Both the position numbers and the translations under genes were made by a program. Shown here one piece after another: positions 22,092 to 64,000 of a stretch of 64,000 bases of DNA. Positions within the stretch are counted from its first letter, which is position 1. Every line of letters begins with the position of its first letter. A model generated the notes under the pieces. The model was not told the DNA's origin. It did no database searches and saw nothing but the letters and a program-made list of their open reading frames with translations. This DNA comes from a virus, in IMG/VR virus record IMGVR_UViG_3300045988_017048, positions 33,649 through 97,648 of that record; one strand, 5' to 3'.

Positions 22092-22118
22092 AGAATAAAA
22101 AAAATAAATAGTATTTTA

Positions 22119-22150: not shown

Positions 22151-22170
22151 CACCATCAAAATAAGAGAAT

Positions 22171-22617: not shown

Positions 22618-22625
22618 CAAGAGAT

Positions 22626-22711: not shown

Positions 22712-22717
22712 CCATTT

Positions 22718-22791
22718 GCCTCCTTAGTGTTAATGGTTTAGCAAGCCTGTCTTGTAAACAGGAAGAGAGGGTTCAAATCCTTCAGGAGGCT
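22718..22791 (+). tRNA. tRNA-Thr(TGT)
   Basis: Acceptor GCCTCCT/AGGAGGC, AC stem CCTGT/ACAGG, loop CT-TGT-AA, T-arm GAGGG-TTCAAAT-CCTTC. Confidence 0.85.
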
Positions 22792-22797
22792 CAAAGT

Positions 22798-22870
22798 GTA
22801 GGTATGGTGTTAGTGGTTAGCATATGACATTGCCAATGTCAAGGGGTCAGTTCAAATCTGATTATCTACT
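22798..22870 (+). tRNA. tRNA-Gly(GCC)
   Basis: Acceptor GTAGGTA/TATCTAC, AC stem TGACA/TGTCA, loop TT-GCC-AA, T-loop TTCAAAT. Confidence 0.85.
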
Positions 22871-22875
22871 CAAAT

Positions 22876-22947
22876 GCAGGTATAGTATAAAGGTTAGTAT
22901 GTAACACTTCCAATGTTAATGTGTGGGTTCGATTCCCACTATCTGCT
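22876..22947 (+). tRNA. tRNA-Gly(TCC)
   Basis: Acceptor GCAGGTA/TATCTGC, AC stem TAACA/TGTTA, loop CT-TCC-AA, T-arm GTGGG-TTCGATT-CCCAC. Confidence 0.85.
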
Positions 22948-22956
22948 CAGATATAT

Positions 22957-23029
22957 CATGGGGTGATAGCAATGGTAGCTAGCAAGGCTCATAACCTTGA
23001 GGTTGGAGGTTCGAGTCCTCCCCCCGTAA
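22957..23029 (+). tRNA. initiator-like tRNA-fMet(CAT)
   Basis: CATGGGG-TGA-TAGC-AATGGTA-GCTA-G-CAAGG-CTCATAA-CCTTG-AGGTT-GGAGG-TTCGAGT-CCTCC-CCCCGTA-A. Carries the C1xA72 mismatch and a GGGG/CCCC acceptor like bacterial initiators, but only two G:C pairs at the base of the anticodon stem. Confidence 0.7.
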
Positions 23030-23043
23030 CTAAATTACTTTAT

Positions 23044-50700: not shown

Positions 50701-52467
50701 ACTGACCCTGTTAGAATTAAGTATAAGTCTACCCCTCATGCTGTGCTAGCCTTGAACTATACTACATCAGGTGCTCAAAGAATATTACCTAATATTAAGG
50801 ATGGTGACTTAAATAAAACTTGGCCTGTAAATGCACAGGACTCAAGTGCTCCAAGTGGCAAGCACATGTATTGGGATAAGTCAGGAAGTGCCAAGAGTGT
50901 ATCACAAGATACTATTATTACTGGTGCTCTAAGAGGCCCTATATCTACTGTATCAAGTATTCAGCATGGATGGCTATGGCTAGGAGAATTGTATAATGAC
51001 AATGTACAGAATAGGTTTGGTGGTCAAACAGAAGAAGCCTTTGAGAATAACATATGGCTACCTTGTGGAGACCCAATTTCTCTTGTAGATACTAATAATA
51101 GAGTCAAGAGCAGTGTTACTATCAGGTGGGAGGAAGGTGATACCTATTTCCAAAGATATGACCATATCAAGACTTATCCATTTACTCTTGAAGACCAGAA
51201 TGCAGTAACTGATATTGTTTCATTCATGTGTGAAACAAGGGTAAATATTGATGGTAGGTATGACAGGAATAGGGGTCAGACAAACAACTTCTCAATAACT
51301 CCTGAGAACTTTAACTTAATGAATGATGTATATTCTCAGCCTAATAACTTCTTTAATTACAGGACAATTAATCCAAACAAATTGAACTTGGATAACTTTC
51401 ACAATTCAATTACTTGGACTAAGACTAAAACTGCTGGAGAGTTAGTGGACACTTGGACTAACATTACTCTTGCATCTACTCTTGACCTTGATGGGGATAA
51501 GGGAAATGTAAGGGCACTGAGAAGGTTTAATAACAATATACTTGCTTTCCAAGATAGAGGTATCAGCCAAATCCTGTATAATGAGAATATGCAGATTTCT
51601 TCTACTGATGGGGTTCCTATTGAGATTGCAAACAGTGGAAAGGTTAATGGTAAGAGATATATCTCTGATAGAATAGGATGCACTAATAAATGGTCTATAT
51701 GTGAAACATCTAATGGCATTTACTTTATAGATGACATTACAAAAGGCATATTCTTATTCAATGGTCAGTTGGATAATCTATCAGATAGATTAGGCTTCCA
51801 CTCTTGGATTAACAGAGCCTCTGATGGTATAGATATATGGAACCCAGTAGACTTTGATGGATTTGTTACCTACTATGATAAGGTTAATGGTGATGTATTC
51901 TTTATTAGTAAAGATGAGTGTTTAGCATTCTCTGAGCCATTAGGTCAGTTCAGCTCATTCTATAGTTATGAGAAAATGCCTTACTTCACTAACCTTGAAG
52001 ACAGAGGAATTGCTATCAATGTTGAAGGTACAGGCACATTATATAAACCTTGGTTGCATAATGAAGGGGATTACAATATGTTCTTTGGAGTGTATCAACC
52101 ATTCTATACTACTGTAATAGCCAATCCAGATATGCCTGTAGACAAGATATTTAATAACCTTGAGTTTAGGTCAGATAGTTGGGATAAGAATGGTAATTTA
52201 CTTAACACAACATTTGATACTCTAACTGCATGGAATGAATATCAACAAGGTACTTCTACTCTAAACAACATCTTAGGAAGACCTTCTGACCTAAAGAAGA
52301 AGTTTAGAATCTGGAGAGCTAATATACCAAGAGCCAGTGCTATTGGTTCTGATAAGAAAGGTAGGGATAGGATGAGGAATCCTTGGTTATATATTAAGCT
52401 GTCTATGGAAAAAGAGAATGTAAACAAGACTGTATTACATGATATGATTGTGCATTACTTTGAGTAA
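47701..52467 (+). CDS. very large tail structural protein (muzzle-like, by size and position)
   Basis: 1588-aa uninterrupted ORF in the position held by the large tail protein of crAss-like phages. Assignment rests on synteny only. Confidence 0.55.
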   Translation: MQKQVIFKTKGMQRDLSASAFNSGYSYENKNVRVMPTDESTLLSLINEKGNKKSSIAGVGDYIKGIPIGQALVNDELVIFTAGNDKDSLYTNIKGEELEIDNIAANELTIDIDYPFEDRIYKLWFNNKVLTGERLFRGDLGFNYKHPIETISFYENTDIRKVYWTDGLNQPRVINIAAASDVVSKWNTDSFNFVRTLNLNEKVTIERNIVANGSFAPGVIQYAFTYFDKYGQESNIFYTSPLYYISYNNRGASPEDRVSNSFNIEVTNVDKRFDYIRIYSIHRTSINATPDVKRVVDLAPPTGRSNYKLSSYEINLPANKMTMYRIGSGAEKTLDQYEPSQSGSNYKSWTFDTNKYYSINFGGDYLTWDTGTSFTITIINGKASMQLANNGNMTGTFSMAKVTYTDNGLSGDSVDPTELLYIGGEEVVFGTMAQKDNTLFLGDIKTKRKTLDSTIRSYFKGKSITFSIYNKSISSPEAKGYYPYTNQLKSNSYQFKTFKYLEYYRFGIQMQHYTGKWSEPIWINDVRNTIHIDTTFYDSSNIGLPVAEFTFNDSNIISRLLNQGYIRIRPVVVYPTINDREAICQGILCPTVYNVSDRYGNSPFAQSSWFTRPNAPFDEYKAFHYHQSDKGAWSGDWVKLGQFLGNPSAYSRAGIMSNDRTIVTSEGTQYNIDVVNKGAWAEFRHNKPIPGNSNRNAEIQCIWDPPSDPYVEDTATDSDVASWVSNNAENYYIDQSILTFHSPDIEFDNEVRSIDTSGLKLRIVGMVPLTAFVSDVDIQTSTPVNNFYDSSELPAGFYKEPIGVENDFSYEGSGTHFGDSHFGWRGLISGAFWFDELTAYKKGTGNTDHLTTGFVVYPWHRNGSLNNTKFATDGYRSAMLDKKKMSNMRYSYKSIYLDSVYIWNAYIKGNNIRTGISGVAIFDSNEVSLIRLPAQENSGLTDINYYGNIDKLLTISRVGSKKDGYPIMTTGVQSAETNAHTLFSGSYTQVDSKFTDQITGTDPVRIKYKSTPHAVLALNYTTSGAQRILPNIKDGDLNKTWPVNAQDSSAPSGKHMYWDKSGSAKSVSQDTIITGALRGPISTVSSIQHGWLWLGELYNDNVQNRFGGQTEEAFENNIWLPCGDPISLVDTNNRVKSSVTIRWEEGDTYFQRYDHIKTYPFTLEDQNAVTDIVSFMCETRVNIDGRYDRNRGQTNNFSITPENFNLMNDVYSQPNNFFNYRTINPNKLNLDNFHNSITWTKTKTAGELVDTWTNITLASTLDLDGDKGNVRALRRFNNNILAFQDRGISQILYNENMQISSTDGVPIEIANSGKVNGKRYISDRIGCTNKWSICETSNGIYFIDDITKGIFLFNGQLDNLSDRLGFHSWINRASDGIDIWNPVDFDGFVTYYDKVNGDVFFISKDECLAFSEPLGQFSSFYSYEKMPYFTNLEDRGIAINVEGTGTLYKPWLHNEGDYNMFFGVYQPFYTTVIANPDMPVDKIFNNLEFRSDSWDKNGNLLNTTFDTLTAWNEYQQGTSTLNNILGRPSDLKKKFRIWRANIPRASAIGSDKKGRDRMRNPWLYIKLSMEKENVNKTVLHDMIVHYFE

Positions 52468-52573: not shown

Positions 52574-55126
52574 ATGGCTAAAAGAAAAGTTATAAGAAAG
52601 TCTAGCAGACCATTTACATATAACCCTCATTACTATTCTTGGGGTGGTGATTTCAAGGCTGCTATGGATGGCACAGGTGCATTTGACTTAAAGAGTACTT
52701 TTAGTGGAGGCAATGTTGCTAAAATGCTAAAGGGAGGCTTGGCAAGTAGTATAGGCAGTGCAGTAGGTAATATTGCAGGTGGTGCTATTGGAGGAGGGCT
52801 TGAATCAGGTGCAGGTAGTGCAATTAGTAACATCGGTGGTACTATAGGTGGTGCAGTAAGTGCAGTTAATCCTGTACTTGGAGGCATCATATCTGCTGGT
52901 ACTGGTGTTATTGGAGGTCTTACAAACAGGATGTTTGGCTCCAAGTTAAATAAAGAAAAAATTACTGAAGTTGAAGGAAGCAACAAAGCTATGAATACTG
53001 TTATGGTAGATAGTAGTAGTGCTGATTCTATAGAAGGTCAATGGGCTAATCAAGATTTTGGGGCAGATTTCTCTAAATCAGATATTGGTAAAGATGGTTG
53101 GTTCAGCAATAAGGCTAAGAGAAAATATAAAGCATTGAAGAAGCAACAAGACATTGCAAGGAATAGGGCTTTGACTTCTTATGAGAATGCAGCAGATGCA
53201 GCAGATACTCAGTCAGACCTTAATGCTATGGCAAATTTTGCTGCCTTTGGTGGTCCTCTTGGTATATGGGGAGGATATGGAAGTGGAGCAATAGGCTATG
53301 AATTGGCTAAGGAGAACTTAGGTATTAAGGCTCTTAATGCTGCAAATAAAGGTAGATTAACTTCATTACCTAACTCATTTGAATCTCCAGAGTTAAACAC
53401 ATTTGCTGAAGGAGGTAAAATACATATTAAACCCTCTAAGAAAGGAACTTTCACAGCAGCAGCTAAAAAGCATGGAAAGTCTGTGCAATCATTTGCTTCA
53501 CAAGTACTAGCTAATAAAGAGGATTACTCTCCTGCTATGGTGAAGAAGGCTAATTTTGCAAGAAATGCTGCTAAATGGAAGCATGCTTTAGGTGGTGAGT
53601 TAAATACTAATGGTGCTGACTTTAGTAATGGTCAAATTATTGTAGGTAATGGTGGAACCCATGAGGAGAATCCAATGGAGGGTGTACCTATGGGAATGGA
53701 TGCTGAGGGAAACCCAAATCTTGTAGAGCAAGGTGAGGTTATATTCAATGACTATGTATTCAGTAATAGGTTATTTGCTGATGGTGGTCTATTGGAGAGT
53801 TTTAATCTCCCTAAGTCTTATGATGGACATTCTTTTGCTGCAATAGCAGAGAAGTTAGGTGATGAATCAAAGGAAAGACCTAATGACCCAATAAGCAAGA
53901 GAGGACTTCTAAGTTCTATGTCCAGACTACAACAAGCCCAAGAGACTGTAAGACAACAGACCCAAAAAGGTCAAGAAGGAGTACAATATGCTCATGGTGG
54001 TAGAATGGGTACATTATTTGATGGTCTTGGTCAGTACCCTAATCATTTATTGATTATAGATGATGGAAGTGTTCCTGAAGGTACAATGTTTGACCCTATT
54101 AGTAATAAGTATGTATTTACTGGTTATCAAGACTCAGATGCTAACCCATTGAACTTTGGTTCAGGAATAACACCATCAGGTGAATGGGTGGAAGAACCTA
54201 AATATATGGCAAGGGCTGCTGCTAAGAGCGCAGGATATAATGTAGGAAGCTCTTTGGATGATTATAATAAAAACCCAATTAAGGCTCCTGAGAAGAAAAA
54301 GAGTGCTGTATCAAGATTGCTAAGCAATTTAGATGCTACAGACCTAAGATATGCTCCTGTAGTAGGTGCTGCAATAGGATTAGGTCAGAACTTATTTAGT
54401 AGACCTGACTATACGAGTGCAGATGCAATATTTGAAGCAGCTAATCAGGCAGGAAATTATACTCCAATAGGTTATACTCCAATAGGCAACTACTTACAAT
54501 ATAGACCTTTTGATAGAAACTTCTATCTAAATAAACTCAATGCACAAGCAGGTGCTACAAGAAGGGCTATTATAAATACTACAAGTCCTTCAAGGAATGC
54601 AGCCTTACTTGCAGCAGATTATAATGCTCAAGGTATAGTAGGAGACCTTGCAAGACAGGCTGAAGAGTATAACTTGGCACAAAGACAAGCTGTTGAAACC
54701 TTTAATAGAGGTACTAATCAAGCCAATGCTGAGATGGGACTCAAGGCTGCAATGGCAAATCAAGAGGCTGCATTAGAGTCAAGAAGTTCAAGACTAAGTG
54801 GAGTTGCACAGGCTATGGCAGTAAGAGATGCTGTTGATGCAAGAAGAGGTGCAAGTATGAGTGCTAACCTTACTAATTTGTTTGACAGTCTTGGTAATAT
54901 AGGTATTGATGCTTACAATAGAGAGGATAGAGATAAACTAATAAGAGCAGGTGTGTTTGGTACTTTAAGTGAGAAGCCTCAAGAATGGAGTGATGAAACT
55001 TGGAAAGAATATAAAGATTATATAAATAAAAGTTTAGAGAATAAAACTCCTAAAGTTAAAGGTAAGCAACCCAGTAAAGGTGGGTACTTAACTATTAAGA
55101 AAGGAAAACAACATGGCAAATTTTAG
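52574..55126 (+). CDS. large virion protein with a Gly-rich hydrophobic N-terminal region (ejection/cargo-like)
   Basis: 850 aa. About 90 residues of GGxIGGxxS-type repeats (GNIAGGAIGGGLESGAGSAISNIGGTIGGAVSAVNPVLGGIISAGTGVIGG). Confidence 0.6.
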   Translation: MAKRKVIRKSSRPFTYNPHYYSWGGDFKAAMDGTGAFDLKSTFSGGNVAKMLKGGLASSIGSAVGNIAGGAIGGGLESGAGSAISNIGGTIGGAVSAVNPVLGGIISAGTGVIGGLTNRMFGSKLNKEKITEVEGSNKAMNTVMVDSSSADSIEGQWANQDFGADFSKSDIGKDGWFSNKAKRKYKALKKQQDIARNRALTSYENAADAADTQSDLNAMANFAAFGGPLGIWGGYGSGAIGYELAKENLGIKALNAANKGRLTSLPNSFESPELNTFAEGGKIHIKPSKKGTFTAAAKKHGKSVQSFASQVLANKEDYSPAMVKKANFARNAAKWKHALGGELNTNGADFSNGQIIVGNGGTHEENPMEGVPMGMDAEGNPNLVEQGEVIFNDYVFSNRLFADGGLLESFNLPKSYDGHSFAAIAEKLGDESKERPNDPISKRGLLSSMSRLQQAQETVRQQTQKGQEGVQYAHGGRMGTLFDGLGQYPNHLLIIDDGSVPEGTMFDPISNKYVFTGYQDSDANPLNFGSGITPSGEWVEEPKYMARAAAKSAGYNVGSSLDDYNKNPIKAPEKKKSAVSRLLSNLDATDLRYAPVVGAAIGLGQNLFSRPDYTSADAIFEAANQAGNYTPIGYTPIGNYLQYRPFDRNFYLNKLNAQAGATRRAIINTTSPSRNAALLAADYNAQGIVGDLARQAEEYNLAQRQAVETFNRGTNQANAEMGLKAAMANQEAALESRSSRLSGVAQAMAVRDAVDARRGASMSANLTNLFDSLGNIGIDAYNREDRDKLIRAGVFGTLSEKPQEWSDETWKEYKDYINKSLENKTPKVKGKQPSKGGYLTIKKGKQHGKF

Positions 55127-56915
55127 TTTAGTCGTAAATAGCAAATTTAATCCTTTCTCTTTTGAAAGATACATACAGCCTTATCAGATATATGGACAAG
55201 CATATAGAGAGGTAGAAGATACTTTAGGTGAATTAGATACTAAGGCAAGTGTATGGGGGGAAATGGCTAATGAACAGACTGACCCTTATGCTTACAAGAT
55301 GTACAAGACCTATGCAAATGACCTTGAAGAGCAAGCAGGTCAGTTAGCAAGAGAGGGACTTAATGCTGCAAGTAGAAGGGACATGCTCAATATGAGAGCA
55401 AGGTACAGTAAGGAGATAACTCCTATTGAACAAGCTTATACAGCAAGACAGAAACAAGCAGAGCAACAGCAACAAGCATTATTACAAGACCCAACATTAT
55501 TATTAAGTAGAAGAGCTTCAACTACAAGCCTTGATGACTACATAAGGAATCCTCAATTAGCTTATGAAGCATATTCAGGTAAACTAATTACTGCACAGGC
55601 TGCAAGTGCTGCATCTGCATTAGCTAAGGAAATGCAAGAGAAACCAAGGAAATGGAGAAGCATCTTAGGCAACTCATACTATGAGACTATGATGCAGAAA
55701 GGCTTTAGTTCTCAAGCAGTATTACAGGCTATACAGGATAACCCCAATGCTGCTCCTCAACTTACAAGAATTGTTGAAGATGCCATTAATTCAAGTGGTG
55801 TTAGAAACTGGGGAGACCAAGCTACTATTGCAAGGGCTATTGACTATGCTAGGCAAGGTTTATGGAGTGCAGCTGGTGAGACTCAATACCAGACTCTTGA
55901 TAATTGGAGGGCTAAGATGGCTGAGCAGGAGGCTATGCAGATTAGGGCAGAGAAAAGAGCTGCTGCAAGAAAGGCAGAAGAGCAAAAACAAGTCCAACTG
56001 AATAATCTTGCTATCAATCCTCTGAATGTCTACAGTAATAGAGAGTTGAGTAAGGATGAAAAGAAGTATAAGGATAATATGAAGAACTTCTCTAAGTACT
56101 TCTATAAAGATAATCATGGTCAAATGAGGATGACTTGGGCTGGCTGGCAAGAATATAACAGGAATGCTACCCCAAAAGTAAGAGTAGCATATTCTGACAG
56201 TGGTACTGCAAGACTTATGAATGCAGAAACACAGATGCAGAAAAGTAGTAAGAAATTTACTCCTACTGTATTCAGACAGTTTATGGATAACTTAGGAGCA
56301 AATAAAGTTACTAGAGGCAAATGGCTACCTGGAAGTCTTGGTAATGTATGGAGCAAATATGTTAATTCTTCAGCAGGAAGAACTTCAAGGTATGATGCTA
56401 CAAGGGTTACTGAGTATGACTATCCTATTGCAGGTGCTCAGCAGGGTGATATGAAGGATGCTATTATGACTGCTGGCAGAGGATTAAGTCTGAAAGAAGT
56501 AGATTATGATAGCAAGTCCAAGAAATTCAAGGATACAGGTGAGGAAATCACTATGGAAGACTTGAAGAGTGATAAGTACAAAGTAACTGCTACAAGGTTC
56601 AGTCCCTATGGTAGTACTGTAATGATACAAGATGATAAGGGTAATGTAAGAAGATTCAGAATGCCTGCTGGTATCAACACAACTAATGAACAGAACAGGG
56701 ATAAGGCAATGGCTGCTGCAAATCAATGGCAACATGTAGTTAGTACAGGTCAATATACTGATGCAAGGGGTAATGTACATCAAGCTACTCCAGATGAAAT
56801 TACTTATGCTCAGCAACAATATGCTAATTCTATACAGCAAGCCTACTTATTCCACTCTCAATTAGGAGTACAGAATAAGACAAAAGAACAAGAGTTTAAT
56901 CCTTATGGATATTAA
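55113..56915 (+). CDS. large helical virion protein (cargo-like)
   Basis: 600 aa, Gln/Ala-rich helical. 14-nt overlap with the upstream gene. Confidence 0.6.
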   Translation: MANFSLVVNSKFNPFSFERYIQPYQIYGQAYREVEDTLGELDTKASVWGEMANEQTDPYAYKMYKTYANDLEEQAGQLAREGLNAASRRDMLNMRARYSKEITPIEQAYTARQKQAEQQQQALLQDPTLLLSRRASTTSLDDYIRNPQLAYEAYSGKLITAQAASAASALAKEMQEKPRKWRSILGNSYYETMMQKGFSSQAVLQAIQDNPNAAPQLTRIVEDAINSSGVRNWGDQATIARAIDYARQGLWSAAGETQYQTLDNWRAKMAEQEAMQIRAEKRAAARKAEEQKQVQLNNLAINPLNVYSNRELSKDEKKYKDNMKNFSKYFYKDNHGQMRMTWAGWQEYNRNATPKVRVAYSDSGTARLMNAETQMQKSSKKFTPTVFRQFMDNLGANKVTRGKWLPGSLGNVWSKYVNSSAGRTSRYDATRVTEYDYPIAGAQQGDMKDAIMTAGRGLSLKEVDYDSKSKKFKDTGEEITMEDLKSDKYKVTATRFSPYGSTVMIQDDKGNVRRFRMPAGINTTNEQNRDKAMAAANQWQHVVSTGQYTDARGNVHQATPDEITYAQQQYANSIQQAYLFHSQLGVQNKTKEQEFNPYGY

Positions 56916-56918
56916 GAT

Positions 56919-59900
56919 ATGGCAAAAGAAACTAAAGTAAAAGATATAGATATTACTAAGAGTGGTCCAATGACTTTCAGAGATTTGCAGAAAGCAAATC
57001 AAAAGCCATATACTAACCTTAGTCCTGAGTTTCAGTCATTCAGTATGAATGTAGGAGCAAGCACTGCTCCTACTTCACTGTATGATGCAAGGGCACATGG
57101 TGAGCAGATGGTACAATCATCCTTAGAGGGAACTGCTACACCTTGGGGTGAGAGTACGTTTGATGAGCCTACTACAACTGAGGCACAGTTTCAAGAGTTA
57201 GGGGATATAAGAGCTGAGAATCAACCTTGGTATGCACAGATAGGAGCAGGTCTTGCTAAGGGTGCTATACTTGCAGGTACTACTTTTCTTGATGGTACTT
57301 TAGGATTGTTGTTCGGAGGAAAGACTGCTATAGAAGAAGATAGATGGTCTGGTATTTGGGATAATGATTTCTCTAAGGCTATGCAGTCTGTTAATGAGTG
57401 GTCTGAGCAGGCATTGCCTAACTATTACACAAAGGCAGAACAAGAACAGCCTTGGTATGAAAATATCTTCACTGCTAACTTCTTAGGTGATAAGTTTATC
57501 AAGAACTTAGGTTTCACAGTAGGTGCTTTTTATAGTGGTGGTGTTACTGCTGCTGGATTGAAAGCAACTAAATTACCTCAACTTATTGGTGCTATTGCTA
57601 AGTCTTCAAAGGCTCCAGCAATAGTTAATTCTGCTGTAGGTGCTACTATCTCAGCAGTAAATGAGGGTAGAATTGAAGCACTCAACAATAGTAAGGATTG
57701 GTTTGAACTCCATAAAGCACAGCTTGATGATACTTATAGAGATAGGATACAAGCTATACAGAATAGGTATGAAGATACTAAAGGTACCCTTGTGAGCACA
57801 AGAGAAGGTCAAATGGTAGACCCTGCATACATAGAATATCAGAATGCTATAAAGAAAGAACAGGAGTCTTATAATGCAGCTTTAGGCAAACTGAGTGAGG
57901 ACAGATTAAAGATGGGTAATGCAGATTTGCTTATGAATATACCTATTCTTACTGCATCTAATATAATTCAGTTTGGTAAGTTGTATGCCAATGGATTTAA
58001 AACTGCAAGAAGAACTACTAATATAGTAGGCAAAGCAGGGGAATATACTGCTGGTACTACAAGATTAGGTGCTACTGCTGCAATAACAAAAGGTGCATTA
58101 TCTGAAGGTAATGAGGAAATATTACAAGTTGCTGCAAGTAGGATAGCAGGTAATTATTACTCTACTGATGTAAATAACTTCTATAAGTCAAAGACTGACC
58201 CAGAGGCTGCACAAGAGACTTTAAGTTGGACCAAATCATTTGCTGAGGGAATTAATGAGACAGTAAATGATGGTTCTGCTTGGGAAGAGTTCTTTATTGG
58301 TTCTTTGACAGGTGCATTAGGTATACCAAGATTTAGAGGAGTTAGAAGTGAGTCAGGCTCACTGCAATCTCCTATTACTATTGAGGGTGGTGCCATAAAT
58401 GAGTGGAGAGACTATAATGAGAAGATAGCAAGGGAAAATAAGATTGCTAACTACATGAATAGTAGGGTAAACTCTCCTGAATTTAAGAACTACTATCAAG
58501 GTCTTATCAGGCATAATAAGTATCAGAATGATATGAACAGAGCTGCTGAGAAAGGTGATGAGTTCAACTTTAAGAATGCAGAACATGCTCAATTAGTATC
58601 TGATATTGCCATGTTTGATAATGCAGGTAGAATGGAAGACCTTACTACACTGATTGATGCAGCCTTTGATACATCAGATGAAAACCTTGCCTCTATTGTG
58701 GAGAATACTACAACTACTCTTGAAGATGGTTCTAAGGTAGGTCCATTTGTTGATAAGAATGGTAATCCTATGTATGCTACTCCAGAGGGCAAGCAGGAAA
58801 TGATAGAGAAGCTACAGCAAAACCATGATGAAATGACCAACACTATCAATAATTATCTGAAGATAAAAGATGAGCTTGATATTAAAACAGGTCAGCAATT
58901 ATCAGATGACCAGCTTGAAGAATTGACATGGATGAAATCTCAGATAGGTAACTGGGCTGAAAGGGCAACAGCTATGTCTGGAGAGGTTAAATCAGCTATT
59001 GGTAATGTAATAGGTAACTTAGACTATCTACTTAAATTTAATCAACAAGTTAGAGATTTTGAAGGTCAACATCATGCTGATTTAACTGATAGATATAAAC
59101 AAGCAGATAAGAATGTAAGAGCCATTGAAGGTGCTATCAACACTCTTAATATGGTTAGAGGTCAGGATGATAAGGTATTGGCTCATACATTAGCAACTAA
59201 TCCTAAGTTTGTAGATGGTCTTATCAAGGAAATTAATGAGGTAGATGAAACTGTACTTAGTGCAGATGATAAAGAGGATATTACAACTAAATTGAATGAT
59301 ATTGTCAAGTTAGGTAATGCCTCAAAGACATATAATGCAAAGCTGAAAGAGTATCTTGAGGACCCTCAAAAGCAAGCAGAAGACCATGCAAAAGCTGATG
59401 AGCAAGCTGCACAACAAGAGACTAAGAAGAAGTCTGATGACCTAAAGACATCTTTGAATGCTGCACAGAACTTACAAGAGTTCAGGAGTACAATAGATGC
59501 CCAAGATGATACAGAGAATAGAGATAGAGTCCTAAAAGAACTTGAGGATGAAGGTAGTGAAATGGCTAAGAGCTACAGAGAAACTTCACAATATAATAAT
59601 GAAGTGAGAAGAGTTCTTAATGAGTCAGATGCAGAACCACAAGTTAAGCAAGATGCTATGAAACTCCTTCAAGACCAATTCAGTAACTCTGAGAATCTTG
59701 AACAGTTAGCTAATCCTAACTCAATTTACATTAATAATGAGAATGCCTTTGATGAAGATTCTGAGGGTGATGTTGAGTTGTCTGCAACAAGATTCCAAGA
59801 AGCTCAATATGAGCTACAGAAGGCTATGTCTCAGGTAAACAATGACAATAGATTTAAGGATAGATTCTCACCTGAATATAAGAAGCCTGTAGAGAAAAGA

Positions 59901-62900
59901 GAGGGAGCTGTAAGAGGTGATGATAGAACTACTACAGGAGATAGTGGAACTGCAACTACTCCTACTGTAACAAGTAGTGAGGACTTACCTACAACAGAAT
60001 TACCTGTAGGTAATATAACTGCTGAAATGGTCAGTGAGGAGAATAAGAAAGCCAATGAGAGGGTAGAGACTCCACAGAGACCAAGTAGAGATACCTCCAA
60101 TCAATTCTATAGACCTGCTATACCTGAACTACATATAGAGGCAAGCAAGGAAGGAGACTTCAGACCATTTGATGTTGTAGCAAGTGAGAGAGAAAAAGGT
60201 GTAGACTTCTCTGGTATTTATGGCTATCTAAGAGATAGTGGAGCATTTAGATACCTAAATGAAGGTAACTTAAAAGCAGGTGATGAACTTGGCTTTATGA
60301 TTGACCCTTCATTCAATGACCACACCATATTTATTATAGATAAAAGGAATGGTCAAGTAGTAGGTAGTTTAGATGAATCTGACTATAGTGTTTCAAGGTA
60401 TGAGGGCCTGAAGGGTCTTGAAGAGAAGATAAGGAAGGAGTATGCAGGAAGAGGTTCTGTACCAGTAGCACAAAAGGATGACTTAATACATATTACTAAT
60501 ACATCTCAAGGATATTCTGATTTAGGAGAAATACAAGAGTGGTCAAAAAAGACAGCAGATGTTAGAACAGAACCTGATGGTTTTGGTGTTAAGAATGGAT
60601 TGACTTATTTTAAAAAGTCTCATAAAGGAGGAAGAGGCGGAGATAATATTACTATATGGTTTAGGAATGAGCCAAGTCAAAAGATAAAGGATAGTATAGA
60701 ACAATTACTTAGTTCTTCTAAAGACCTTAATGAGTTTGGAGATAAAGTTACTGAACTCATTAGAGACACTCAATCTAAAGGTAAATTTATTGCCACACCT
60801 ACTACAAGGGTATCTAAGGTAATGATAGGTAGGATTCCTTATGGTAATACTGAAAGGAGTTTGTCTGAAATACCTAATGTATCTTCAACTGATAGAAAGC
60901 CTATCTTTGGTATTATAAAGAATGGTGTACTTACTACCAATAGTAAGATTGATGACAGTCTTATTATTAAGCCAGTGGATATGAGCCAAAAGGAGGGTAG
61001 ATTATATCTGCTTATACCTAATGGAGCTGGTAAGTATTCTCCTGCTGCTGTAAGAGTTAAGCACTTTAATAATGAAGAGTTTAATCTGAATGACAACAGT
61101 ATAAGTTCTACTCCTGTTGGAGAAGATATAAAGAATGCCATTACTAAGTTATCAACTGCTACATCACAGGATGATGTATCTGCTGCTATGCAAGACTTAG
61201 CACAAGATTTGTATATGCAGGACATCATGGTTACTTGGTTTAGTAGCAAGGCAGGTGATGGTATTGTTATCAGTAAGAAGGTGAGAAAGCCAGATGGTAC
61301 TTATGAGAAAGTAACCATTGATGGAAAGGAGCAAATCAAGGAGGATAAGTATGATGTATATTTCTCTACAAGTAGTAAGAGTGCAGAGATTGGAGGTATA
61401 AACTTTGATGTAACTGCTCTTGAAGCTTTAGGAGATACAAGTGCATTAGGTGCTCCCAAGAATCCTGAGGATATATACAATGAGATACTCGGACACCTTG
61501 TTAAGTTCAATCTTCCTCTGCAAGTCAGTACAAGGAGAATAAATGAAGGTGCATACAACAATAGATTGATAAACTCTAATATCCTTACTTCAAATATTAC
61601 TGAGGCTTCAGTAAGAAGTACTTGGTTTACAACTGACTACTTTGATAATGAAGGTAATCTACATCAAGCTATAAGTCCAGCTTCTGTAGCCCCTCAGCCT
61701 AAGAGGAAGATAGAGACTCCTGTAGGTGGCACTGAAGGTGCTATAAAGGGTATTTATATGCAGCCAGCAGGATTTACATATCCAGTATATGTAGATTTAT
61801 CTACTCACACTATAAGGGATAATCAAGGTAAAGCTATCATTATTAATGAAGGTTCAACAAAATTATTATTTGATTTAGCTTGGGCACAAGAGAACTTTGG
61901 AGATGCTACTAATTCCTCAATGATGGTAGATAACAAAGTTCTTACTCCTGATGGTAAGGTACTTGATAGAAATAAACAGACATATCTTAGTGGTCAAGAG
62001 GCACAAGATGTTAAGGATACTATTGCAGGTAGAAAGAAAGAAAGAGAGGATAGAGTTGCCAAGTCTAAGGAGGTTGTCAGTGAAATATATGAGAACCAGA
62101 AGAGGGTAGATAAGACAAGAACTGATGGTGAGTTTTATTATGTACTTGAAGATGATGGTGAATATCATCAGTATAGTAGAGTACATAGCAGATTAGGCTC
62201 CAATTGGGTAGAATCTGACAAGCAAGCAAAGGCTCTTGAATTAGTAAGACTTAATCTTAGCAAGTTTGTAGATAATCCCACTCAGTTTGAGAATTACCTG
62301 AAATACTTGGAGAACAAGTTTAAGGTAGACTTGACTGCCTACAGAGGTAAGACTGATGCCAAGAGTAGAGATACTATTGTGAATATAGTAAGAGATAAGA
62401 TGTCTGGTACTAACTCACAAAGAGCACTTGATGCTGGTTCAGCAGTAGATAGTATCATTAGACAGTACTTTACTATAAGAGATATATCTAAGATAGTAAG
62501 ACCATCCAATATATCAGAAAATGCTTTCATAGATTTGATTACTTCCCTTAATAGGATTAAGTCAAATATGGAGCAAATGGGAGAGAGATTCCTTGCTGAT
62601 AATATTGTATTGTTCCAAAAATACTCTGATGGTACAAGAGTTGCAGGTGAGGTTGATATTCTTTCTATTGACAAGGATGGTAACTTTAGAATCTATGATG
62701 TAAAGACAAGTAGATACAGTTTCTATGACTTTACAGACAGATATGGTCACAAGGTTAACTACTTTAACAATCCCTCTGCTACTCAAAGAATGAGTGCAAA
62801 GGATTACTATACTTTACAACTTTCTGCTTACAAGAACTTATTTGAATCTCAGTATGGTGTACCAGTTACTAAGTTAGCTGTAATGCCATTTGTATTGAGT

Positions 62901-64000
62901 TATAATAAAGAGAATGTATCAGCAGTACAAAGTGAAAGGGGTATTCCTATTACATATAATCCTGCTGTTAATGTGCCCTTAGTAAGTAATGTTAAGATAG
63001 ATAAACCTGTAGAAACTCCTGCTACTCCAGCACAAGCTCAGACAGTATTACCTATCTTTGAGACTTCATTAGAGACACAGAATCCTATTGAGGACTTAAC
63101 TCCTGAACACAGTATGAATAATGCTGATGAGGGAGTAGGTTACTTTGAGTTGGATGGCAAGTTACATAAAGGGTATTTAACTCCTGTTGCAGGTATTACA
63201 GAAGTAGATGTCTATATAACCAAGGTTCCTAATATTACAGAGGGATTTGGTAGACAGGGAGAAGCAGCTCATGTAGCTTCAAACAATTTCTATGCAGTAT
63301 TTCCTAATGGAAAGACATTCTTATTCTTGAAGAATAATCCTGTACAAGGAGGTATGAGTGAGTCTCAAGTTGAGGATTCCATTAGAAAAGCCTTATTAGG
63401 TAATCCTCAAAGAATGAAAGACTTAGCATCAGAAAAGACTATATTGTTTGACCCTAATGCAGTACCTACTGTAAGTGCTGCTCCTGTTACTACTGTAGAA
63501 ACTCCTGCAACTATTAATCAAGGTAATACCCAGACAGGTGCTGCCTATACTGCTCAAAAAGAACAGGCAATAAATGACCATGATGAAGAGTTTGAAGATG
63601 AGTTTACTCTAAGAAAGGCAAAGGATACTACAGAAACTCCTGTATGGAATCAAGAAAAGGAACTTAAATGGCTAAATAAAGTCTTACCTCAACTAAGTGA
63701 ATCAGATAGAGTAAAAGTAGTAAAAGGTCTTATTAAAGTAGGTAAAAAGGGTACTTTAGCTTGGGGTCAATTTGACAAAGGTGTAATCACACTGTCTGAC
63801 ATAGCTGCTGAAGGTACTGCATACCATGAAGCATTTCATGCTGTATTTAATCTCCTTCTTGACAATAATGAGAGACAGGCACTATATGATGAAGCAAGGA
63901 AATTATATGGTGAAAAAGATAACCTCTCATTAGAGGAAGACATGGCAGAGGGATTCAGAGAGTATGTAATGACAAGGCAGAATAGAGGCTTAGGCAAGAG
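56919..64000 (+). CDS. giant multidomain virion protein, 5' partial (at least 2360 codons, continues beyond the window)
   Basis: ATG at 56919, 4 nt after the upstream stop. I read the frame codon by codon to 64000 and found no stop. Only short antisense shadow ORFs are listed here in the track. Contains a PD-(D/E)xK/RecB-like motif set (about 62170-62840) and HEAFH (63825-63839). Confidence 0.85.
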   Translation, partial: MAKETKVKDIDITKSGPMTFRDLQKANQKPYTNLSPEFQSFSMNVGASTAPTSLYDARAHGEQMVQSSLEGTATPWGESTFDEPTTTEAQFQELGDIRAENQPWYAQIGAGLAKGAILAGTTFLDGTLGLLFGGKTAIEEDRWSGIWDNDFSKAMQSVNEWSEQALPNYYTKAEQEQPWYENIFTANFLGDKFIKNLGFTVGAFYSGGVTAAGLKATKLPQLIGAIAKSSKAPAIVNSAVGATISAVNEGRIEALNNSKDWFELHKAQLDDTYRDRIQAIQNRYEDTKGTLVSTREGQMVDPAYIEYQNAIKKEQESYNAALGKLSEDRLKMGNADLLMNIPILTASNIIQFGKLYANGFKTARRTTNIVGKAGEYTAGTTRLGATAAITKGALSEGNEEILQVAASRIAGNYYSTDVNNFYKSKTDPEAAQETLSWTKSFAEGINETVNDGSAWEEFFIGSLTGALGIPRFRGVRSESGSLQSPITIEGGAINEWRDYNEKIARENKIANYMNSRVNSPEFKNYYQGLIRHNKYQNDMNRAAEKGDEFNFKNAEHAQLVSDIAMFDNAGRMEDLTTLIDAAFDTSDENLASIVENTTTTLEDGSKVGPFVDKNGNPMYATPEGKQEMIEKLQQNHDEMTNTINNYLKIKDELDIKTGQQLSDDQLEELTWMKSQIGNWAERATAMSGEVKSAIGNVIGNLDYLLKFNQQVRDFEGQHHADLTDRYKQADKNVRAIEGAINTLNMVRGQDDKVLAHTLATNPKFVDGLIKEINEVDETVLSADDKEDITTKLNDIVKLGNASKTYNAKLKEYLEDPQKQAEDHAKADEQAAQQETKKKSDDLKTSLNAAQNLQEFRSTIDAQDDTENRDRVLKELEDEGSEMAKSYRETSQYNNEVRRVLNESDAEPQVKQDAMKLLQDQFSNSENLEQLANPNSIYINNENAFDEDSEGDVELSATRFQEAQYELQKAMSQVNNDNRFKDRFSPEYKKPVEKREGAVRGDDRTTTGDSGTATTPTVTSSEDLPTTELPVGNITAEMVSEENKKANERVETPQRPSRDTSNQFYRPAIPELHIEASKEGDFRPFDVVASEREKGVDFSGIYGYLRDSGAFRYLNEGNLKAGDELGFMIDPSFNDHTIFIIDKRNGQVVGSLDESDYSVSRYEGLKGLEEKIRKEYAGRGSVPVAQKDDLIHITNTSQGYSDLGEIQEWSKKTADVRTEPDGFGVKNGLTYFKKSHKGGRGGDNITIWFRNEPSQKIKDSIEQLLSSSKDLNEFGDKVTELIRDTQSKGKFIATPTTRVSKVMIGRIPYGNTERSLSEIPNVSSTDRKPIFGIIKNGVLTTNSKIDDSLIIKPVDMSQKEGRLYLLIPNGAGKYSPAAVRVKHFNNEEFNLNDNSISSTPVGEDIKNAITKLSTATSQDDVSAAMQDLAQDLYMQDIMVTWFSSKAGDGIVISKKVRKPDGTYEKVTIDGKEQIKEDKYDVYFSTSSKSAEIGGINFDVTALEALGDTSALGAPKNPEDIYNEILGHLVKFNLPLQVSTRRINEGAYNNRLINSNILTSNITEASVRSTWFTTDYFDNEGNLHQAISPASVAPQPKRKIETPVGGTEGAIKGIYMQPAGFTYPVYVDLSTHTIRDNQGKAIIINEGSTKLLFDLAWAQENFGDATNSSMMVDNKVLTPDGKVLDRNKQTYLSGQEAQDVKDTIAGRKKEREDRVAKSKEVVSEIYENQKRVDKTRTDGEFYYVLEDDGEYHQYSRVHSRLGSNWVESDKQAKALELVRLNLSKFVDNPTQFENYLKYLENKFKVDLTAYRGKTDAKSRDTIVNIVRDKMSGTNSQRALDAGSAVDSIIRQYFTIRDISKIVRPSNISENAFIDLITSLNRIKSNMEQMGERFLADNIVLFQKYSDGTRVAGEVDILSIDKDGNFRIYDVKTSRYSFYDFTDRYGHKVNYFNNPSATQRMSAKDYYTLQLSAYKNLFESQYGVPVTKLAVMPFVLSYNKENVSAVQSERGIPITYNPAVNVPLVSNVKIDKPVETPATPAQAQTVLPIFETSLETQNPIEDLTPEHSMNNADEGVGYFELDGKLHKGYLTPVAGITEVDVYITKVPNITEGFGRQGEAAHVASNNFYAVFPNGKTFLFLKNNPVQGGMSESQVEDSIRKALLGNPQRMKDLASEKTILFDPNAVPTVSAAPVTTVETPATINQGNTQTGAAYTAQKEQAINDHDEEFEDEFTLRKAKDTTETPVWNQEKELKWLNKVLPQLSESDRVKVVKGLIKVGKKGTLAWGQFDKGVITLSDIAAEGTAYHEAFHAVFNLLLDNNERQALYDEARKLYGEKDNLSLEEDMAEGFREYVMTRQNRGLGK

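What the first reader, a model, noticed from the sequence alone, without database searches (positions are those of the whole stretch)
56919..64000. Giant ORF (at least 2360 aa, unterminated in the window) combining a RecB-type nuclease motif set and a zincin HExxH
The ORF track shows nothing on the plus strand after 56915. Reading from the ATG at 56919, however, gives an uninterrupted frame to the end of the window, so its absence from the track reflects the missing in-window stop. The N-terminus has hydrophobic Gly/Ala segments (AQIGAGLAKGAILAGTTFLDGTLGLLFGG) followed by long coiled coils. At about 62170-62840 the sequence reads ...GSAVDSIIRQYF ... VAGEVDILSIDKDGNFRIYDVKTSR ... YYTLQLSAYKNLF. 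That gives the D, D-x-K and QxxxY motif order of PD-(D/E)xK nucleases of the RecB/Cas4/lambda-exonuclease type. At 63825-63839 is AYHEAFHAVFN (HExxH). In crAss-like phages the last giant virion proteins include the packaged RNA polymerase. I did not see its Asp-rich catalytic motif in the visible part, so it may lie beyond the window. A virion-delivered nuclease-plus-metallopeptidase polyprotein could attack host DNA or defence proteins on entry, or process itself.
Basis: partly seen in the sequence, partly recalled or inferred. Interest (0 to 1): 0.7.

Follow-up and report, generated by a model that had tools for sequence, protein, structure and literature searches.

The report
Giant injected crAss-phage cargo protein
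The giant open reading frame is real and is this crAss-like gut phage's copy of a known virion-packaged, host-injected protein (ΦcrAss001 gp47) that carries a DNA-cutting domain and a zinc-protease-like domain; it is not the phage RNA polymerase, and the surprise is that it and its partner proteins keep almost no cysteines except at their extreme ends.

Summary
Confirmed: window 56919-64000 (+) is one stop-free frame of 2,360 codons. It is the orthologue of ΦcrAss001 gp47, a mass-spectrometry-verified virion cargo protein annotated 'putative RNAP subunit'. In 26 of 33 closest relatives the gene ends 96 aa past the window, so it is nearly complete (about 2,456 aa).

The PD-(D/E)xK nuclease is supported: phrog_298 E=4e-10, and D1844, D1913, D1927, K1929, Q1967 and Y1971 are conserved in at least 69/70 distinct orthologues. 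Yutin 2021 already noted such a domain. The HExxH module matches no curated zincin family significantly, but HExxH plus the 'EExMAE' helix recur in 145/145 modules extracted from the 150 listed hits (2,754 at E<=1e-3). hhalign links it (94.6%, E=6.5e-8; controls <=0.7%) to the crAss 'zincin' of phi14:2 gp65 and p-crAssphage gp45.

Relatives insert an ART-PolyVal ADP-ribosyltransferase behind it, so this is a phage 'polyvalent protein'. The RNAP idea fails: there is no DxDxD motif, and DFDxD lies in a separate opposite-strand gene.

Unreported as far as I found: the three cargo ORFs in the window have 0 Cys in 3,810 aa. Across Crassvirales, gp47-like proteins keep one C-terminal Cys, the RNAP keeps N- and C-terminal Cys, and gp49-like proteins keep an N-terminal Cys. 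This suggests an end-to-end linked cargo chain.

The parts
56919..64000 (+). Giant ORF, 2,360 codons visible, unterminated in the window. Orthologue of ΦcrAss001 gp47, phi14:2 gp67 and p-crAssphage gp45 (by position). Probably about 2,456 aa in full.
   Evidence: 47% aa identity over 94% to gp47; 75-76% to cr85_1 and Bajarodcaudo virus 1; same gene order; 26 of 33 closest relatives end 96 aa after the window end.
57147..57656 (+). Conserved N-terminal module (aa 77-246), shared with Cellulophaga phage phi14:2 gp67.
   Evidence: BLASTP E=1e-7 to the gp67 N-terminus. Present in at least 97% of 77 orthologues.
57234..57323 (+). Gly/Ala-rich, moderately hydrophobic segment (aa 106-135). Possible membrane-active or packing helix.
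   Evidence: Kyte-Doolittle 19-aa maximum 1.32. The function is inferred only.
58416..59918 (+). Highly charged region (aa ~500-1000; 31-49% K/E/D/R/Q), presumably alpha-helical.
   Evidence: Composition scan. gp47 was predicted alpha-helical by AlphaFold in PMC10172136. Not tested here.
60411..60788 (+). Rare insertion (aa ~1165-1290), present in only about 15% of orthologues. No domain hit.
   Evidence: Coverage map. The nearest loci (about 92% nt identity) lack exactly ORF nt 3528-3861.
62052..62885 (+). PD-(D/E)xK nuclease domain (aa 1712-1989). Motif residues: D1844 (62448-62450), D1913 (62655-62657), D1927-V-K1929 (62697-62705), Q1967-x3-Y1971 (62817-62831).
   Evidence: phrog_298 'exonuclease' E=4.1e-10. 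Pfam PDDEXK_1 E=4.7e-4, 20.6 bits against a cut-off of 22. Motif residues conserved in at least 69/70 distinct orthologues down to 37% identity.
63036..63518 (+). Pro-rich linkers and a small conserved segment (aa ~2040-2200; 'GYFELDGKLHKGY...HVASNNFYAVFPNGKT') between the nuclease and the HExxH module.
   Evidence: Present in about 86% of orthologues. No family hit.
63621..64000 (+). Zincin-like (MPTase-like) HExxH module, cut by the window end. H2303-E2304-x-x-H2307 (63825-63839). The downstream helix L-E2339-E2340-D-M-A2343-E2344 (63927-63953) carries the candidate third zinc ligand.
   Evidence: Invariant G,T,Y,H,E,H...E,A columns in 31 diverse members. 2,754 representative proteins at E<=1e-3, and 145/145 extracted modules keep both motifs. 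hhalign to the crAss zincin alignment gives 94.6%, E=6.5e-8, against controls of <=0.7%.
52574..55126 (+). Upstream neighbour, 850 aa, at the position of ΦcrAss001 gp45 (cargo protein 1). Contains 0 Cys.
   Evidence: Synteny. Cys count.
55113..56915 (+). Upstream neighbour, 600 aa, at the position of ΦcrAss001 gp46 (cargo protein 2). Contains 0 Cys.
   Evidence: Synteny. Cys count.
47701..52467 (+). 1,588-aa virion structural protein at the position of the ΦcrAss001 gp44 'muzzle' / stabilisation protein. Context only.
   Evidence: phrog_28748 E=7.5e-89. Synteny.

Best explanation
The ORF encodes this phage's gp47-type cargo protein: a giant 'polyvalent' protein made late, packed inside the capsid and expelled through the tail into the Bacteroides cell ahead of, or with, the DNA. 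Its anatomy is as follows. A conserved N-terminal module with a Gly/Ala hydrophobic helix is shared as far as phi14:2 gp67. About 1,500 residues of charged, mostly helical body follow. Then come a PD-(D/E)xK nuclease with an intact catalytic set and a zincin-like HExxH/Glu-helix (MPTase-like) module. Beyond the window, relatives have a slot that is either empty or filled by an ART-PolyVal ADP-ribosyltransferase, followed by a short conserved tail that holds the protein's only cysteine.

Shown here: orthology, domain content, motif conservation and cassette variability. Taken from the literature: virion packaging of the orthologue and its late transcription. Inferred: after ejection the nuclease acts on DNA at the entry site (host or competitor DNA, or phage genome ends), and the metallopeptidase cuts the giant protein or a partner into working pieces, or cuts a host target, as proposed for MPTase domains of polyvalent proteins. 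The protein travels physically coupled to the virion RNA polymerase rather than being a polymerase subunit in the catalytic sense.
For: Orthology and synteny with ΦcrAss001 gp47, cr85_1 and Bajarodcaudo virus. gp47 was detected by MS in virions and assigned to the capsid cargo zone (PMC10172136), and it is transcribed late (PMC8375218). The N-terminal module is homologous to phi14:2 gp67, itself an MS-verified virion protein in the record.

Nuclease: phrog_298 4e-10, PDDEXK_1 4.7e-4, and catalytic residues conserved in at least 69/70; the same domain is found in DAC17_56 (E=1.7e-16). Zincin-like module: invariant HExxH plus EExxAE in 145/145 modules extracted from the 150 listed hits of a 2,754-hit family; hhalign 94.6% to the alignment containing phi14:2 gp65 and p-crAss gp45, which are annotated zincins; the predicted secondary-structure order of helix, beta-sheet, HExxH helix, insert and Glu helix equals the MPTase core described in PMC5512222.

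Polyvalent character: ART-PolyVal is present in cr85_1 (7e-21), in about 27 of 67 orthologues and in 8 of the 14 largest representatives. A Creatininase domain occurs in a close relative.
Against: No enzymatic activity is shown for any domain. Pfam PDDEXK_1 is just below its gathering score. No curated zincin family or solved structure matches the HExxH module significantly (best E 0.0099-0.36). Both AlphaFold models were low confidence and Foldseek found nothing. Virion packaging is known only for the 47%-identical orthologue. The C-terminal about 96 aa, and therefore any ART cassette, are outside the window; 6 of the 33 closest relatives do carry a cassette. The target of the nuclease or the peptidase is unknown.
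Confidence: 0.75

Rival explanations
1. It is a true accessory subunit of the virion RNA polymerase, as GenBank annotates it. On this reading the helical body scaffolds or regulates the polymerase, and the nuclease-like and HExxH modules serve structural, nucleic-acid-binding or autoinhibitory roles rather than attacking host molecules. This is comparable to the HExxH-bearing C-terminal domain of the N4 vRNAP, which binds and dampens the polymerase.
For: Annotation of all orthologues as 'putative RNA-polymerase subunit'. Co-conservation and adjacency with the RNAP genes across Crassvirales. The complementary terminal cysteines suggest physical coupling to the RNAP. The N4 vRNAP CTD has an HExxH C1 domain and autoinhibits the RNAP (PMC13434306).
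Against: No RNAP motif or detectable similarity to any polymerase subunit. The full catalytic residue sets of both enzymes are kept over deep divergence, which argues for activity. Swappable ART and Creatininase cassettes are typical of effectors, not of polymerase subunits. gp47 is transcribed late, separately from gp49/gp50.
Confidence: 0.3
2. It is mainly an ejectosome or conduit component. The N-terminal hydrophobic module and long helical body form or extend the trans-envelope channel, like T7 gp15/gp16 or N4 gp51/gp52, and the metallopeptidase digests peptidoglycan cross-links or envelope proteins during entry.
For: The Gly/Ala hydrophobic segment sits in the most widely conserved part of the protein. 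It lies directly after the two genes proposed to form the channel (PMC10172136). The Drobysheva preprint suggests that the crAss zincin may digest peptidoglycan.
Against: Hydrophobicity is below typical transmembrane values (max 1.32). A DNA nuclease and an NAD-dependent ART need cytoplasmic substrates. No lysozyme or transglycosylase or peptidoglycan-binding domain was found.
Confidence: 0.2
3. The nuclease works on the phage's own DNA rather than on host DNA, for example by processing genome ends on entry, or by recombination or repair at the entry site. The protein would then be a genome-delivery factor, not an anti-host weapon.
For: The best profile hit is a phage 'exonuclease' family of the DNA-metabolism category (phrog_298). 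crAss phages encode several PDDEXK nucleases with apparently different roles (PMC7886860).
Against: Nothing in the sequence discriminates between targets. Co-occurrence with ART-PolyVal effectors favours a conflict role (PMC5512222).
Confidence: 0.25
4. The long frame is an artefact, either a chimeric assembly or a decayed pseudogene.
For: None beyond the missing stop codon inside the window.
Against: 77 independent full-length orthologues of 2,057-2,822 aa are collinear with it. The chance of such a frame is about 1e-80.
Confidence: 0.01

Closest known systems
ΦcrAss001 gp47 (YP_009910787; 'putative RNA-polymerase subunit'; RNAP-associated cargo protein, 262.5 kDa)
   Same: Same genomic position after the muzzle, cargo-1 and cargo-2 genes. 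47% identity over 94% of the length. Same nuclease domain, same YHEAFH module and same C-terminal tail ending in a single Cys.
   Different: The window protein has a rare 125-aa insertion (aa 1165-1290) and belongs to another genus-level clade (nearest are Kahnovirus cr85_1 and Bajarodcaudo virus 1). Its C-terminus is not in the window.
Cellulophaga phage phi14:2 gp67 (virion structural protein, 1,797 aa) and p-crAssphage KP06_gp45 ('RNAP associated protein fused to zincin protease')
   Same: Same position directly upstream of the RNAP gene in the direction of transcription. gp67 shares the N-terminal module (E=1e-7). gp45 carries a zincin about 200 aa from its C-terminus. Both end with a terminal Cys.
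   Different: gp67 has neither the nuclease nor an HExxH; in phi14:2 the zincin sits in gp65, after the RNAP. The gp45 zincin is of the 'hHExxH' type, related to the window's only at profile-profile level.
Polyvalent proteins of phages and conjugative elements (Iyer, Burroughs, Anand, de Souza, Aravind 2017, PMC5512222)
   Same: Giant multidomain protein encoded among late virion genes. A zincin-like MPTase acts as the hub domain, combined with a nuclease and (in orthologues) the ART-PolyVal domain defined from that study. Cassette-like variability.
   Different: crAss phages are not mentioned in that paper. The window's HExxH module does not reach any Pfam MPTase model. No MuF domain. Coupled to a two-barrel rather than a T7-like virion RNAP.
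Phage N4 virion RNA polymerase gp50 (Schitoviridae)
   Same: A giant protein that is encapsidated and ejected. It carries an HExxH zincin-like domain next to large helical regions, and N4-like relatives fuse ART or lysozyme domains to it (PMC5512222; PMC13434306).
   Different: In N4 the polymerase and the HExxH domain are in one polypeptide. Here the polymerase is a separate gene of an unrelated fold, and no sequence similarity was detected.
RecB-family / lambda-exonuclease-type PD-(D/E)xK nucleases (Pfam PDDEXK_1, phrog_298)
   Same: Motif order D ... D ... (D/E)xK ... QxxxY and profile matches.
   Different: Embedded in a 2,400-aa virion protein. Just below Pfam's gathering score. No Fe-S cysteines, so unlike Cas4/AddB. 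No helicase partner.

Membership tests
PD-(D/E)xK nuclease superfamily, RecB/lambda-exo-like branch | Catalytic motifs in order: acidic residue in the N-terminal helix, D at a strand end, (D/E)xK on the next strand, QxxxY helix. | tested here: met
   D1844, D1913, D1927-V-K1929 and Q1967-x3-Y1971 are each conserved in at least 69/70 distinct orthologue sequences down to 37% identity.
PD-(D/E)xK nuclease superfamily, RecB/lambda-exo-like branch | Significant match to a curated family profile. | tested here: inconclusive
   phrog_298 'exonuclease' E=4.1e-10 over aa 1712-1989 is significant. Pfam PDDEXK_1 gives 20.6 bits against a gathering score of 22 (E=4.7e-4). NCBIfam gives nothing. The profile against PDB sequences gives nothing.
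PD-(D/E)xK nuclease superfamily, RecB/lambda-exo-like branch | Alpha-beta-beta-beta-alpha-beta restriction-endonuclease-like fold. | tested here: inconclusive
   The AlphaFold2 model has mean pLDDT 54.8, with the beta core below 50. It was not used for fold search.
Cas4 / AddB-type PD-(D/E)xK nucleases | Four-cysteine Fe-S cluster flanking the nuclease core. | tested here: not met
   There is no cysteine anywhere in the 2,360 visible residues.
Zincin (gluzincin / MPTase-like) metallopeptidases | HExxH on a helix, with both His and the Glu invariant. | tested here: met
   H2303, E2304 and H2307 are invariant in 31 diverse members, and HExxH is present in 145/145 extracted representative modules.
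Zincin (gluzincin / MPTase-like) metallopeptidases | Third zinc ligand (Glu) on a second helix downstream of the HExxH helix. | tested here: met
   The motif-level evidence is E2340 invariant, A2343 invariant and E/D2344 conserved in 'LEExMAExF', 37-41 residues after H2303. The helix is predicted in the model. Which Glu binds the metal is not determined.
Zincin (gluzincin / MPTase-like) metallopeptidases | Significant similarity to a curated zincin family or a solved zincin structure. | tested here: not met
   Only sub-threshold hits. PDB: FtsH 0.19, YME1 0.3, Zmp1/PPEP-1 0.36. Pfam per member: Peptidase_M41 best 0.047 in 3/31, Tox-MPTase4 0.0099 in 1/31. Foldseek on the low-confidence model found nothing.
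Zincin (gluzincin / MPTase-like) metallopeptidases | Homology to the 'Zincin-like' domain already described in crAss-like phages (phi14:2 gp65, p-crAssphage gp45). | tested here: met
   hhalign of A4 against the type-B alignment gives 94.6% probability and E=6.5e-8, with HExxH and the Glu helix in register. Without the bridging sequences it gives 57% and E=1e-4. Controls give <=0.7%. The Bajarodcaudo type-B module hits gp65 directly at E=5e-7. The zincin status of gp65 and gp45 rests on the literature and annotation.
Polyvalent proteins (Iyer et al. 2017) | Very large multidomain protein with two or more unrelated effector or enzymatic domains. | tested here: met
   At least 2,360 aa with a nuclease and a zincin-like module. 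Orthologues add ART-PolyVal or Creatininase.
Polyvalent proteins (Iyer et al. 2017) | Encoded among late or virion genes and delivered into the recipient with the DNA. | not testable with these tools
   The neighbourhood criterion is met. Delivery rests on MS detection of the orthologue gp47 in virions (PMC10172136).
Polyvalent proteins (Iyer et al. 2017) | A polyvalent-protein signature domain (e.g. ART-PolyVal, MPTase-PolyVal) in this very protein. | tested here: inconclusive
   No Pfam PolyVal model hits the visible 2,360 aa. The slot where orthologues carry ART-PolyVal lies beyond the window; 26 of the 33 closest relatives have it empty.
Crassvirales gp47 orthologous group | Position after the muzzle, cargo-1 and cargo-2 genes, with end-to-end similarity. 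| tested here: met
   77 orthologues are collinear over at least 85% of the visible length.
Crassvirales gp47 orthologous group | Conserved C-terminal tail W..E.(F/W)..(I/V)S..ER..A.KC(I/V)A(F/L) with the single Cys. | not testable with these tools
   The tail lies beyond the window end. It is present in 77/77 orthologues.
Two-barrel virion RNA polymerase (phi14:2 gp66 type) | DFDxD / DxDxD catalytic loop. | tested here: not met
   No DxDxD anywhere in the ORF. The motif is in ΦcrAss001 gp50 (aa 1483), cr85_1 gp50-like and phi14:2 gp66.

The most novel reading that the evidence does not exclude
The three giant crassvirus cargo proteins form a covalently stitched chain inside the virion. gp47-type proteins keep a single cysteine 1-5 residues from the C-terminus. 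The RNA polymerase keeps one 3-8 residues from its N-terminus and one at or near its C-terminus. gp49/gp65-type proteins keep one 3-5 residues from the N-terminus. Otherwise these proteins, and the two smaller cargo proteins in the window, are almost or entirely cysteine-free. The proposal is that end-to-end disulfides (gp47-S-S-RNAP-S-S-gp49) form in the oxidised virion. They would replace the peptide bonds seen in phages where these proteins are fused, let the cargo thread through the tail as one continuous N-to-C string, and be reduced in the cytoplasm to release the parts. The pattern itself is shown; the disulfide chain is inferred.
Probability: 0.35. Interest if true: 0.8.

Novelty: new member of a known kind. 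Interest (0 to 1): 0.5.

Why it matters
crAss-like phages are the most abundant viruses of the human gut, and what their injected giant proteins do is still open. A 2026 paper states that the three RNAP-associated proteins 'warrant further investigation' (PMC13434306).

This analysis gives gp47-type proteins a concrete, testable job description. They are an injected polyvalent protein with an intact PD-(D/E)xK nuclease, a zincin-like peptidase homologous to the one known elsewhere in the crAss transcription block, and a cassette slot often filled by an ADP-ribosyltransferase. They are not a polymerase subunit.

It also corrects which gene carries the polymerase active site (gp50, not gp47 or gp49). 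It exposes a conserved terminal-cysteine code that could explain how about 700 kDa of cargo leaves the capsid in order. That idea can be tested directly by non-reducing gels and cross-link mass spectrometry on ΦcrAss001 virions.

Tried and rejected
(1) AlphaFold2 of the nuclease domain (A1) and of the HExxH module (A2/P0001) both came out near pLDDT 55, because only shallow alignments of admissible sequences were available. Foldseek against PDB with the HExxH model gave no match below E=0.2. The nuclease model was not searched.

(2) Sequence and profile searches against PDB chains found nothing for the whole protein or the nuclease profile, and only sub-threshold zincin hits for the HExxH profile.

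(3) NCBIfam gave nothing for the window protein.

(4) The search for homologous proteins returned only 100-570-aa fragments of close relatives for both domains. It was useful for the C-terminus (P0001) but not for depth.

(5) A direct HMM search of the window-type HExxH profile against phi14:2 gp65, p-crAss gp45 and crAss002 gp32 found nothing. I first concluded that the two HExxH modules were unrelated, and revised this after the profile-profile comparison with controls.

(6) I considered that the Creatininase domain of MT838585 replaces the nuclease. This cannot be decided, because that record is a fragment starting inside the domain and no other collected orthologue has it.

(7) RNAP beyond the window in the same ORF: rejected.

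(8) A Cas4-like Fe-S nuclease: rejected, no Cys.

(9) A bona fide transmembrane N-terminus: not supported by hydropathy.

(10) NC_024711 and PMC5736458 / PMC12127119 were not available. I used BK010471 and the bioRxiv version instead.
Full report
**1. Observation**

Window 56919-64000 (+) translates into 2,360 codons with no stop. The ATG follows the stop of the upstream ORF (55113-56915) by 4 nt. With the window's composition (35.6% GC), a stop-free run of this length has a probability of about 1e-80. The ORF tool omits it only because it runs off the end. HEAFH is aa 2303-2307, which is nt 63825-63839.

**2. Identity**

The DNA and protein match crAss-like phages of Steigviridae/Asinivirinae:
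- Bajarodcaudo virus 1: 76% aa identity.
- Kahnovirus cr85_1: 75%.
- cr128_1: 60%.
- ΦcrAss001 and its relatives: 47% over 94% of the length.

In all of them the orthologue follows the tail tubular, muzzle/stabilisation and two mid-sized genes. It is annotated 'putative RNA-polymerase subunit', which is gp47 in ΦcrAss001. Full-length orthologues are 2,341, 2,518 and 2,671 aa in these three records. In 77 IMG/VR contigs they range from 2,057 to 2,822 aa. Among the 33 loci that are 88-94% identical over the last 1.2 kb, 26 end 96 aa after the point where the window stops, 5 end after 226 aa and 1 after 298 aa. The window protein is therefore probably about 2,456 aa.

gp47 was detected by mass spectrometry in ΦcrAss001 virions and assigned to the capsid cargo zone together with gp46, gp49 and gp50 (PMC10172136). 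It is transcribed late, unlike gp49 and gp50 (PMC8375218).

**3. Not the polymerase**

The ORF has no DxDxD motif. The catalytic DFDxD loop of the two-barrel virion RNAP (phi14:2 gp66, 'TGSDFDIDKMY') is found in ΦcrAss001 gp50 ('SGSDFDVDKLY', aa 1483) and in the cr85_1 equivalent. These are separate genes on the opposite strand downstream of gp47.

By position and by an N-terminal match (aa 77-246, BLASTP E=1e-7), the window protein corresponds to phi14:2 gp67, a virion structural protein.

**4. Nuclease**

- PHROGs gives phrog_298 'exonuclease', E=4.1e-10 over aa 1712-1989.
- Pfam PDDEXK_1 reaches 20.6 bits against a gathering score of 22 (E=4.7e-4) on the isolated domain.
- The same hits recur in the three reference orthologues.
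- In 70 distinct orthologue sequences going down to 37% identity, D1844, D1913, D1927, K1929, Q1967 and Y1971 are each kept in at least 69.
- The domain is present in 99% of the 77 orthologues and in DAC17_56 (profile E=1.7e-16).

There is no cysteine, so it is not a Cas4/AddB-type Fe-S nuclease. Fold-level confirmation failed because the model had pLDDT 54.8.

Yutin et al. [quoted passage not shown] This part is therefore known in outline.

**5. HExxH module**

The motif sits in a conserved module, '...WGQF..G.ITLSD.AAEGT.YHEAFH.VF...LEE.MAE.FRE...FFK.LF'. An exhaustive profile search found 2,754 cluster representatives at E<=1e-3. Most of the 150 listed hits are giant proteins of 1,700-3,760 aa, usually with the module towards the C-terminus. 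All 145 modules extracted from those hits keep both HExxH and the downstream E-x-[LM]-A-[ED] helix. In a 31-member diverse alignment G, T, Y, H, E, H, E2340 and A2343 are invariant.

Curated libraries do not recognise it:
- Against PDB, the best hits are FtsH 0.19, YME1 0.3 and Zmp1/PPEP-1 0.36. They are aligned on the motif but not significant.
- In Pfam, run per member, the best are Peptidase_M41 at 0.047 and Tox-MPTase4 at 0.0099.
- The AlphaFold model was poor (pLDDT 56.3) and Foldseek found nothing.
- The predicted order of elements is helix, four strands, HExxH helix, insert helix, Glu helix. This is the MPTase core described by Iyer et al. 2017.

A positive link came from profile-profile comparison. 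A second, 'hHExxH'-type module occurs in Bajarodcaudo virus (weak phrog_87 metalloprotease hit), in several giant relatives, in p-crAssphage gp45 (annotated 'fused to zincin protease'), in crAss002 gp32 and in phi14:2 gp65, which is the published crAss zincin.
- The Bajarodcaudo module hits gp65 directly at E=5e-7.
- hhalign of the window-type alignment against this type-B alignment gives 94.6% probability and E=6.5e-8, with HExxH and the Glu helix in register.
- With the bridging sequences removed it gives 57% and E=1e-4.
- Reversed, column-shuffled and unrelated controls give <=0.7%.

I conclude that the module is a divergent member of the crAss zincin-like (MPTase-like) domain. Its zincin status rests on motifs plus transitive homology, not on a direct match to a solved zincin.

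**6. Polyvalent architecture**

cr85_1 carries Pfam ART-PolyVal (E=7e-21) between the HExxH module and the tail. So do about 27 of the 67 orthologues with the canonical module and 8 of the 14 largest representatives. A close relative (MT838585) has a Creatininase-family domain (E=2.9e-11) just upstream of the shared linker. The window itself has a 125-aa insertion found in only 15% of orthologues.

This combination is the 'polyvalent protein' theme of Iyer et al. 2017, a paper that does not mention crAss phages: a giant virion-associated protein, an MPTase-like hub, a nuclease, and swappable effector cassettes. The closest functional analogue is the N4 virion RNAP, whose C-terminal region also bears an HExxH domain.

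**7. Mechanism**

Shown: orthology, domains, conserved catalytic residues and the cassette slot. From the literature: packaging and late expression of the orthologue.

Inferred:
- The protein is ejected N-to-C through the tail, ahead of or with the DNA.
- The nuclease acts on DNA at entry.
- The peptidase processes the giant protein, a partner or a host target.
- In relatives, the ART modifies host proteins.

The rivals cannot be excluded with sequence alone: RNAP accessory or scaffold, ejectosome component, and a nuclease acting on the phage's own DNA. The conserved catalytic sets and effector cassettes favour active enzymes.

**8. Terminal cysteines (found in passing)**

The visible 2,360 aa contain no Cys, and neither do the two upstream cargo-position ORFs (850 and 600 aa). 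The other 30 ORFs of at least 150 aa that were tallied in the window (12,264 aa) average 0.86% Cys. All 77 orthologues have a Cys within the last 8 residues, and in 67 it is the only Cys.

| Genome | gp47-type | RNAP | gp49/gp65-type |
|---|---|---|---|
| ΦcrAss001, cr85_1, phi14:2, DAC17 | one Cys, 1-4 from the C-terminus | Cys at residue 3-5 and at or near the C-terminus | Cys at residue 3-5, usually its only one |
| 66 further loci | not scored (the script stopped first) | 62/62 have a C-terminal Cys; 52/62 have an N-terminal Cys (the rest look like split genes) | 76/77 have an N-terminal Cys |
| p-crAssphage and crAss002 (RNAP fused to the downstream subunit) | keeps its C-terminal Cys | begins 'MSC' (an internal Met in crAss002 gp33); no C-terminal Cys | fused to the RNAP |

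ΦcrAss001 virions are known to use intermolecular disulfides in the tail and portal vertex. I found no mention of cargo cysteines in the papers available. The simplest reading is an end-to-end linkage gp47-RNAP-gp49 that mimics the fused polyprotein. This reading is an inference.

**9. Verdict**

It is of moderate interest because the function of these proteins is an open question. The terminal-cysteine pattern is the most novel lead.

Noticed in passing
window 52574-64000 (three ORFs); L001, L002, L004, L085-L153: The three consecutive cargo-position ORFs have 0 Cys in 3,810 aa, against 0.86% in the other tallied ORFs. Across Crassvirales the giant cargo proteins keep cysteines almost only at complementary termini: gp47-type at the C-terminus, the RNAP at the N- and C-terminus, gp49-type at the N-terminus. 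Where the RNAP and the downstream subunit are fused, the junction cysteines are absent.
   Followed up: yes
L005:3-270 (MT838585, human faeces, Mexico): A close relative (87% nt identity over the shared end) has a Creatininase-family domain (PF02633, E=2.9e-11) immediately upstream of the linker 'GIPIAYNPAVNVP'. In the window this position follows the nuclease. Whether it is inserted after the nuclease or replaces it cannot be told from the fragment, and none of the 77 other orthologues has it.
   Followed up: partly
window 60411-60788: A 125-aa segment (aa ~1165-1290; '...GRGGDNITIWFRNEPSQKIKDSIEQLL...') is present in only about 15% of orthologues and absent from the closest (92% nt identity) relatives. 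No domain hit.
   Followed up: partly
L001:26166-33404 (ΦcrAss001 gp50) versus gp49: The DFDVD catalytic loop is in gp50 (aa 1483). Two papers nevertheless refer to gp49 as the predicted catalytic subunit or as the homologue of the phi14:2 crystal structure. gp49 has neither DxDxD nor HExxH.
   Followed up: partly
L153:15996-16100 (crAss002 gp33): The annotated start is probably 32 codons too early. An internal 'KY-MSC-TPSNP' matches the 'MSC' N-terminus of p-crAssphage gp44 and of the Steigviridae RNAPs.
   Followed up: partly
window 18624-23030 (+) and 9849-16433 (-): ARAGORN predicts 25 tRNA genes in a dense plus-strand array, 4 further predicted tRNA genes on the minus strand (two with irregular anticodon loops), and a tmRNA-like gene at 11519-11900 (-) with tag peptide GNTSYRVAA. 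The array explains part of the stretch at 14.6-25.2 kb that has no ORFs of 150 aa or more. The tmRNA call was not verified.
   Followed up: no
A5 consensus (P0036, P0055 and other giant representatives of 3,000-3,760 aa): The largest family members carry further conserved C-terminal modules after the ART. One has a P-loop-like 'GHPAIGKTT' motif and one has 'ENPLHDIDF'. Pfam did not recognise either at E<=0.001.
   Followed up: no
Protein database hits P0001-P0033: In the 5.8-billion-protein collection the relatives of this ORF appeared only as 100-570-aa fragments, even on contigs of 80-100 kb. This suggests that gene callers or a length filter split or drop these giant genes there.
   Followed up: no
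L003:27191-35374 (Bajarodcaudo virus 1) and about 10 IMG/VR loci: The RNAP gene is split into two ORFs around an endonuclease gene. The new ends ('...DLRKLIGYRV' / 'MAPLYIKGFL...') carry no cysteines, which fits intron-type interruptions rather than true protein splits.
   Followed up: partly
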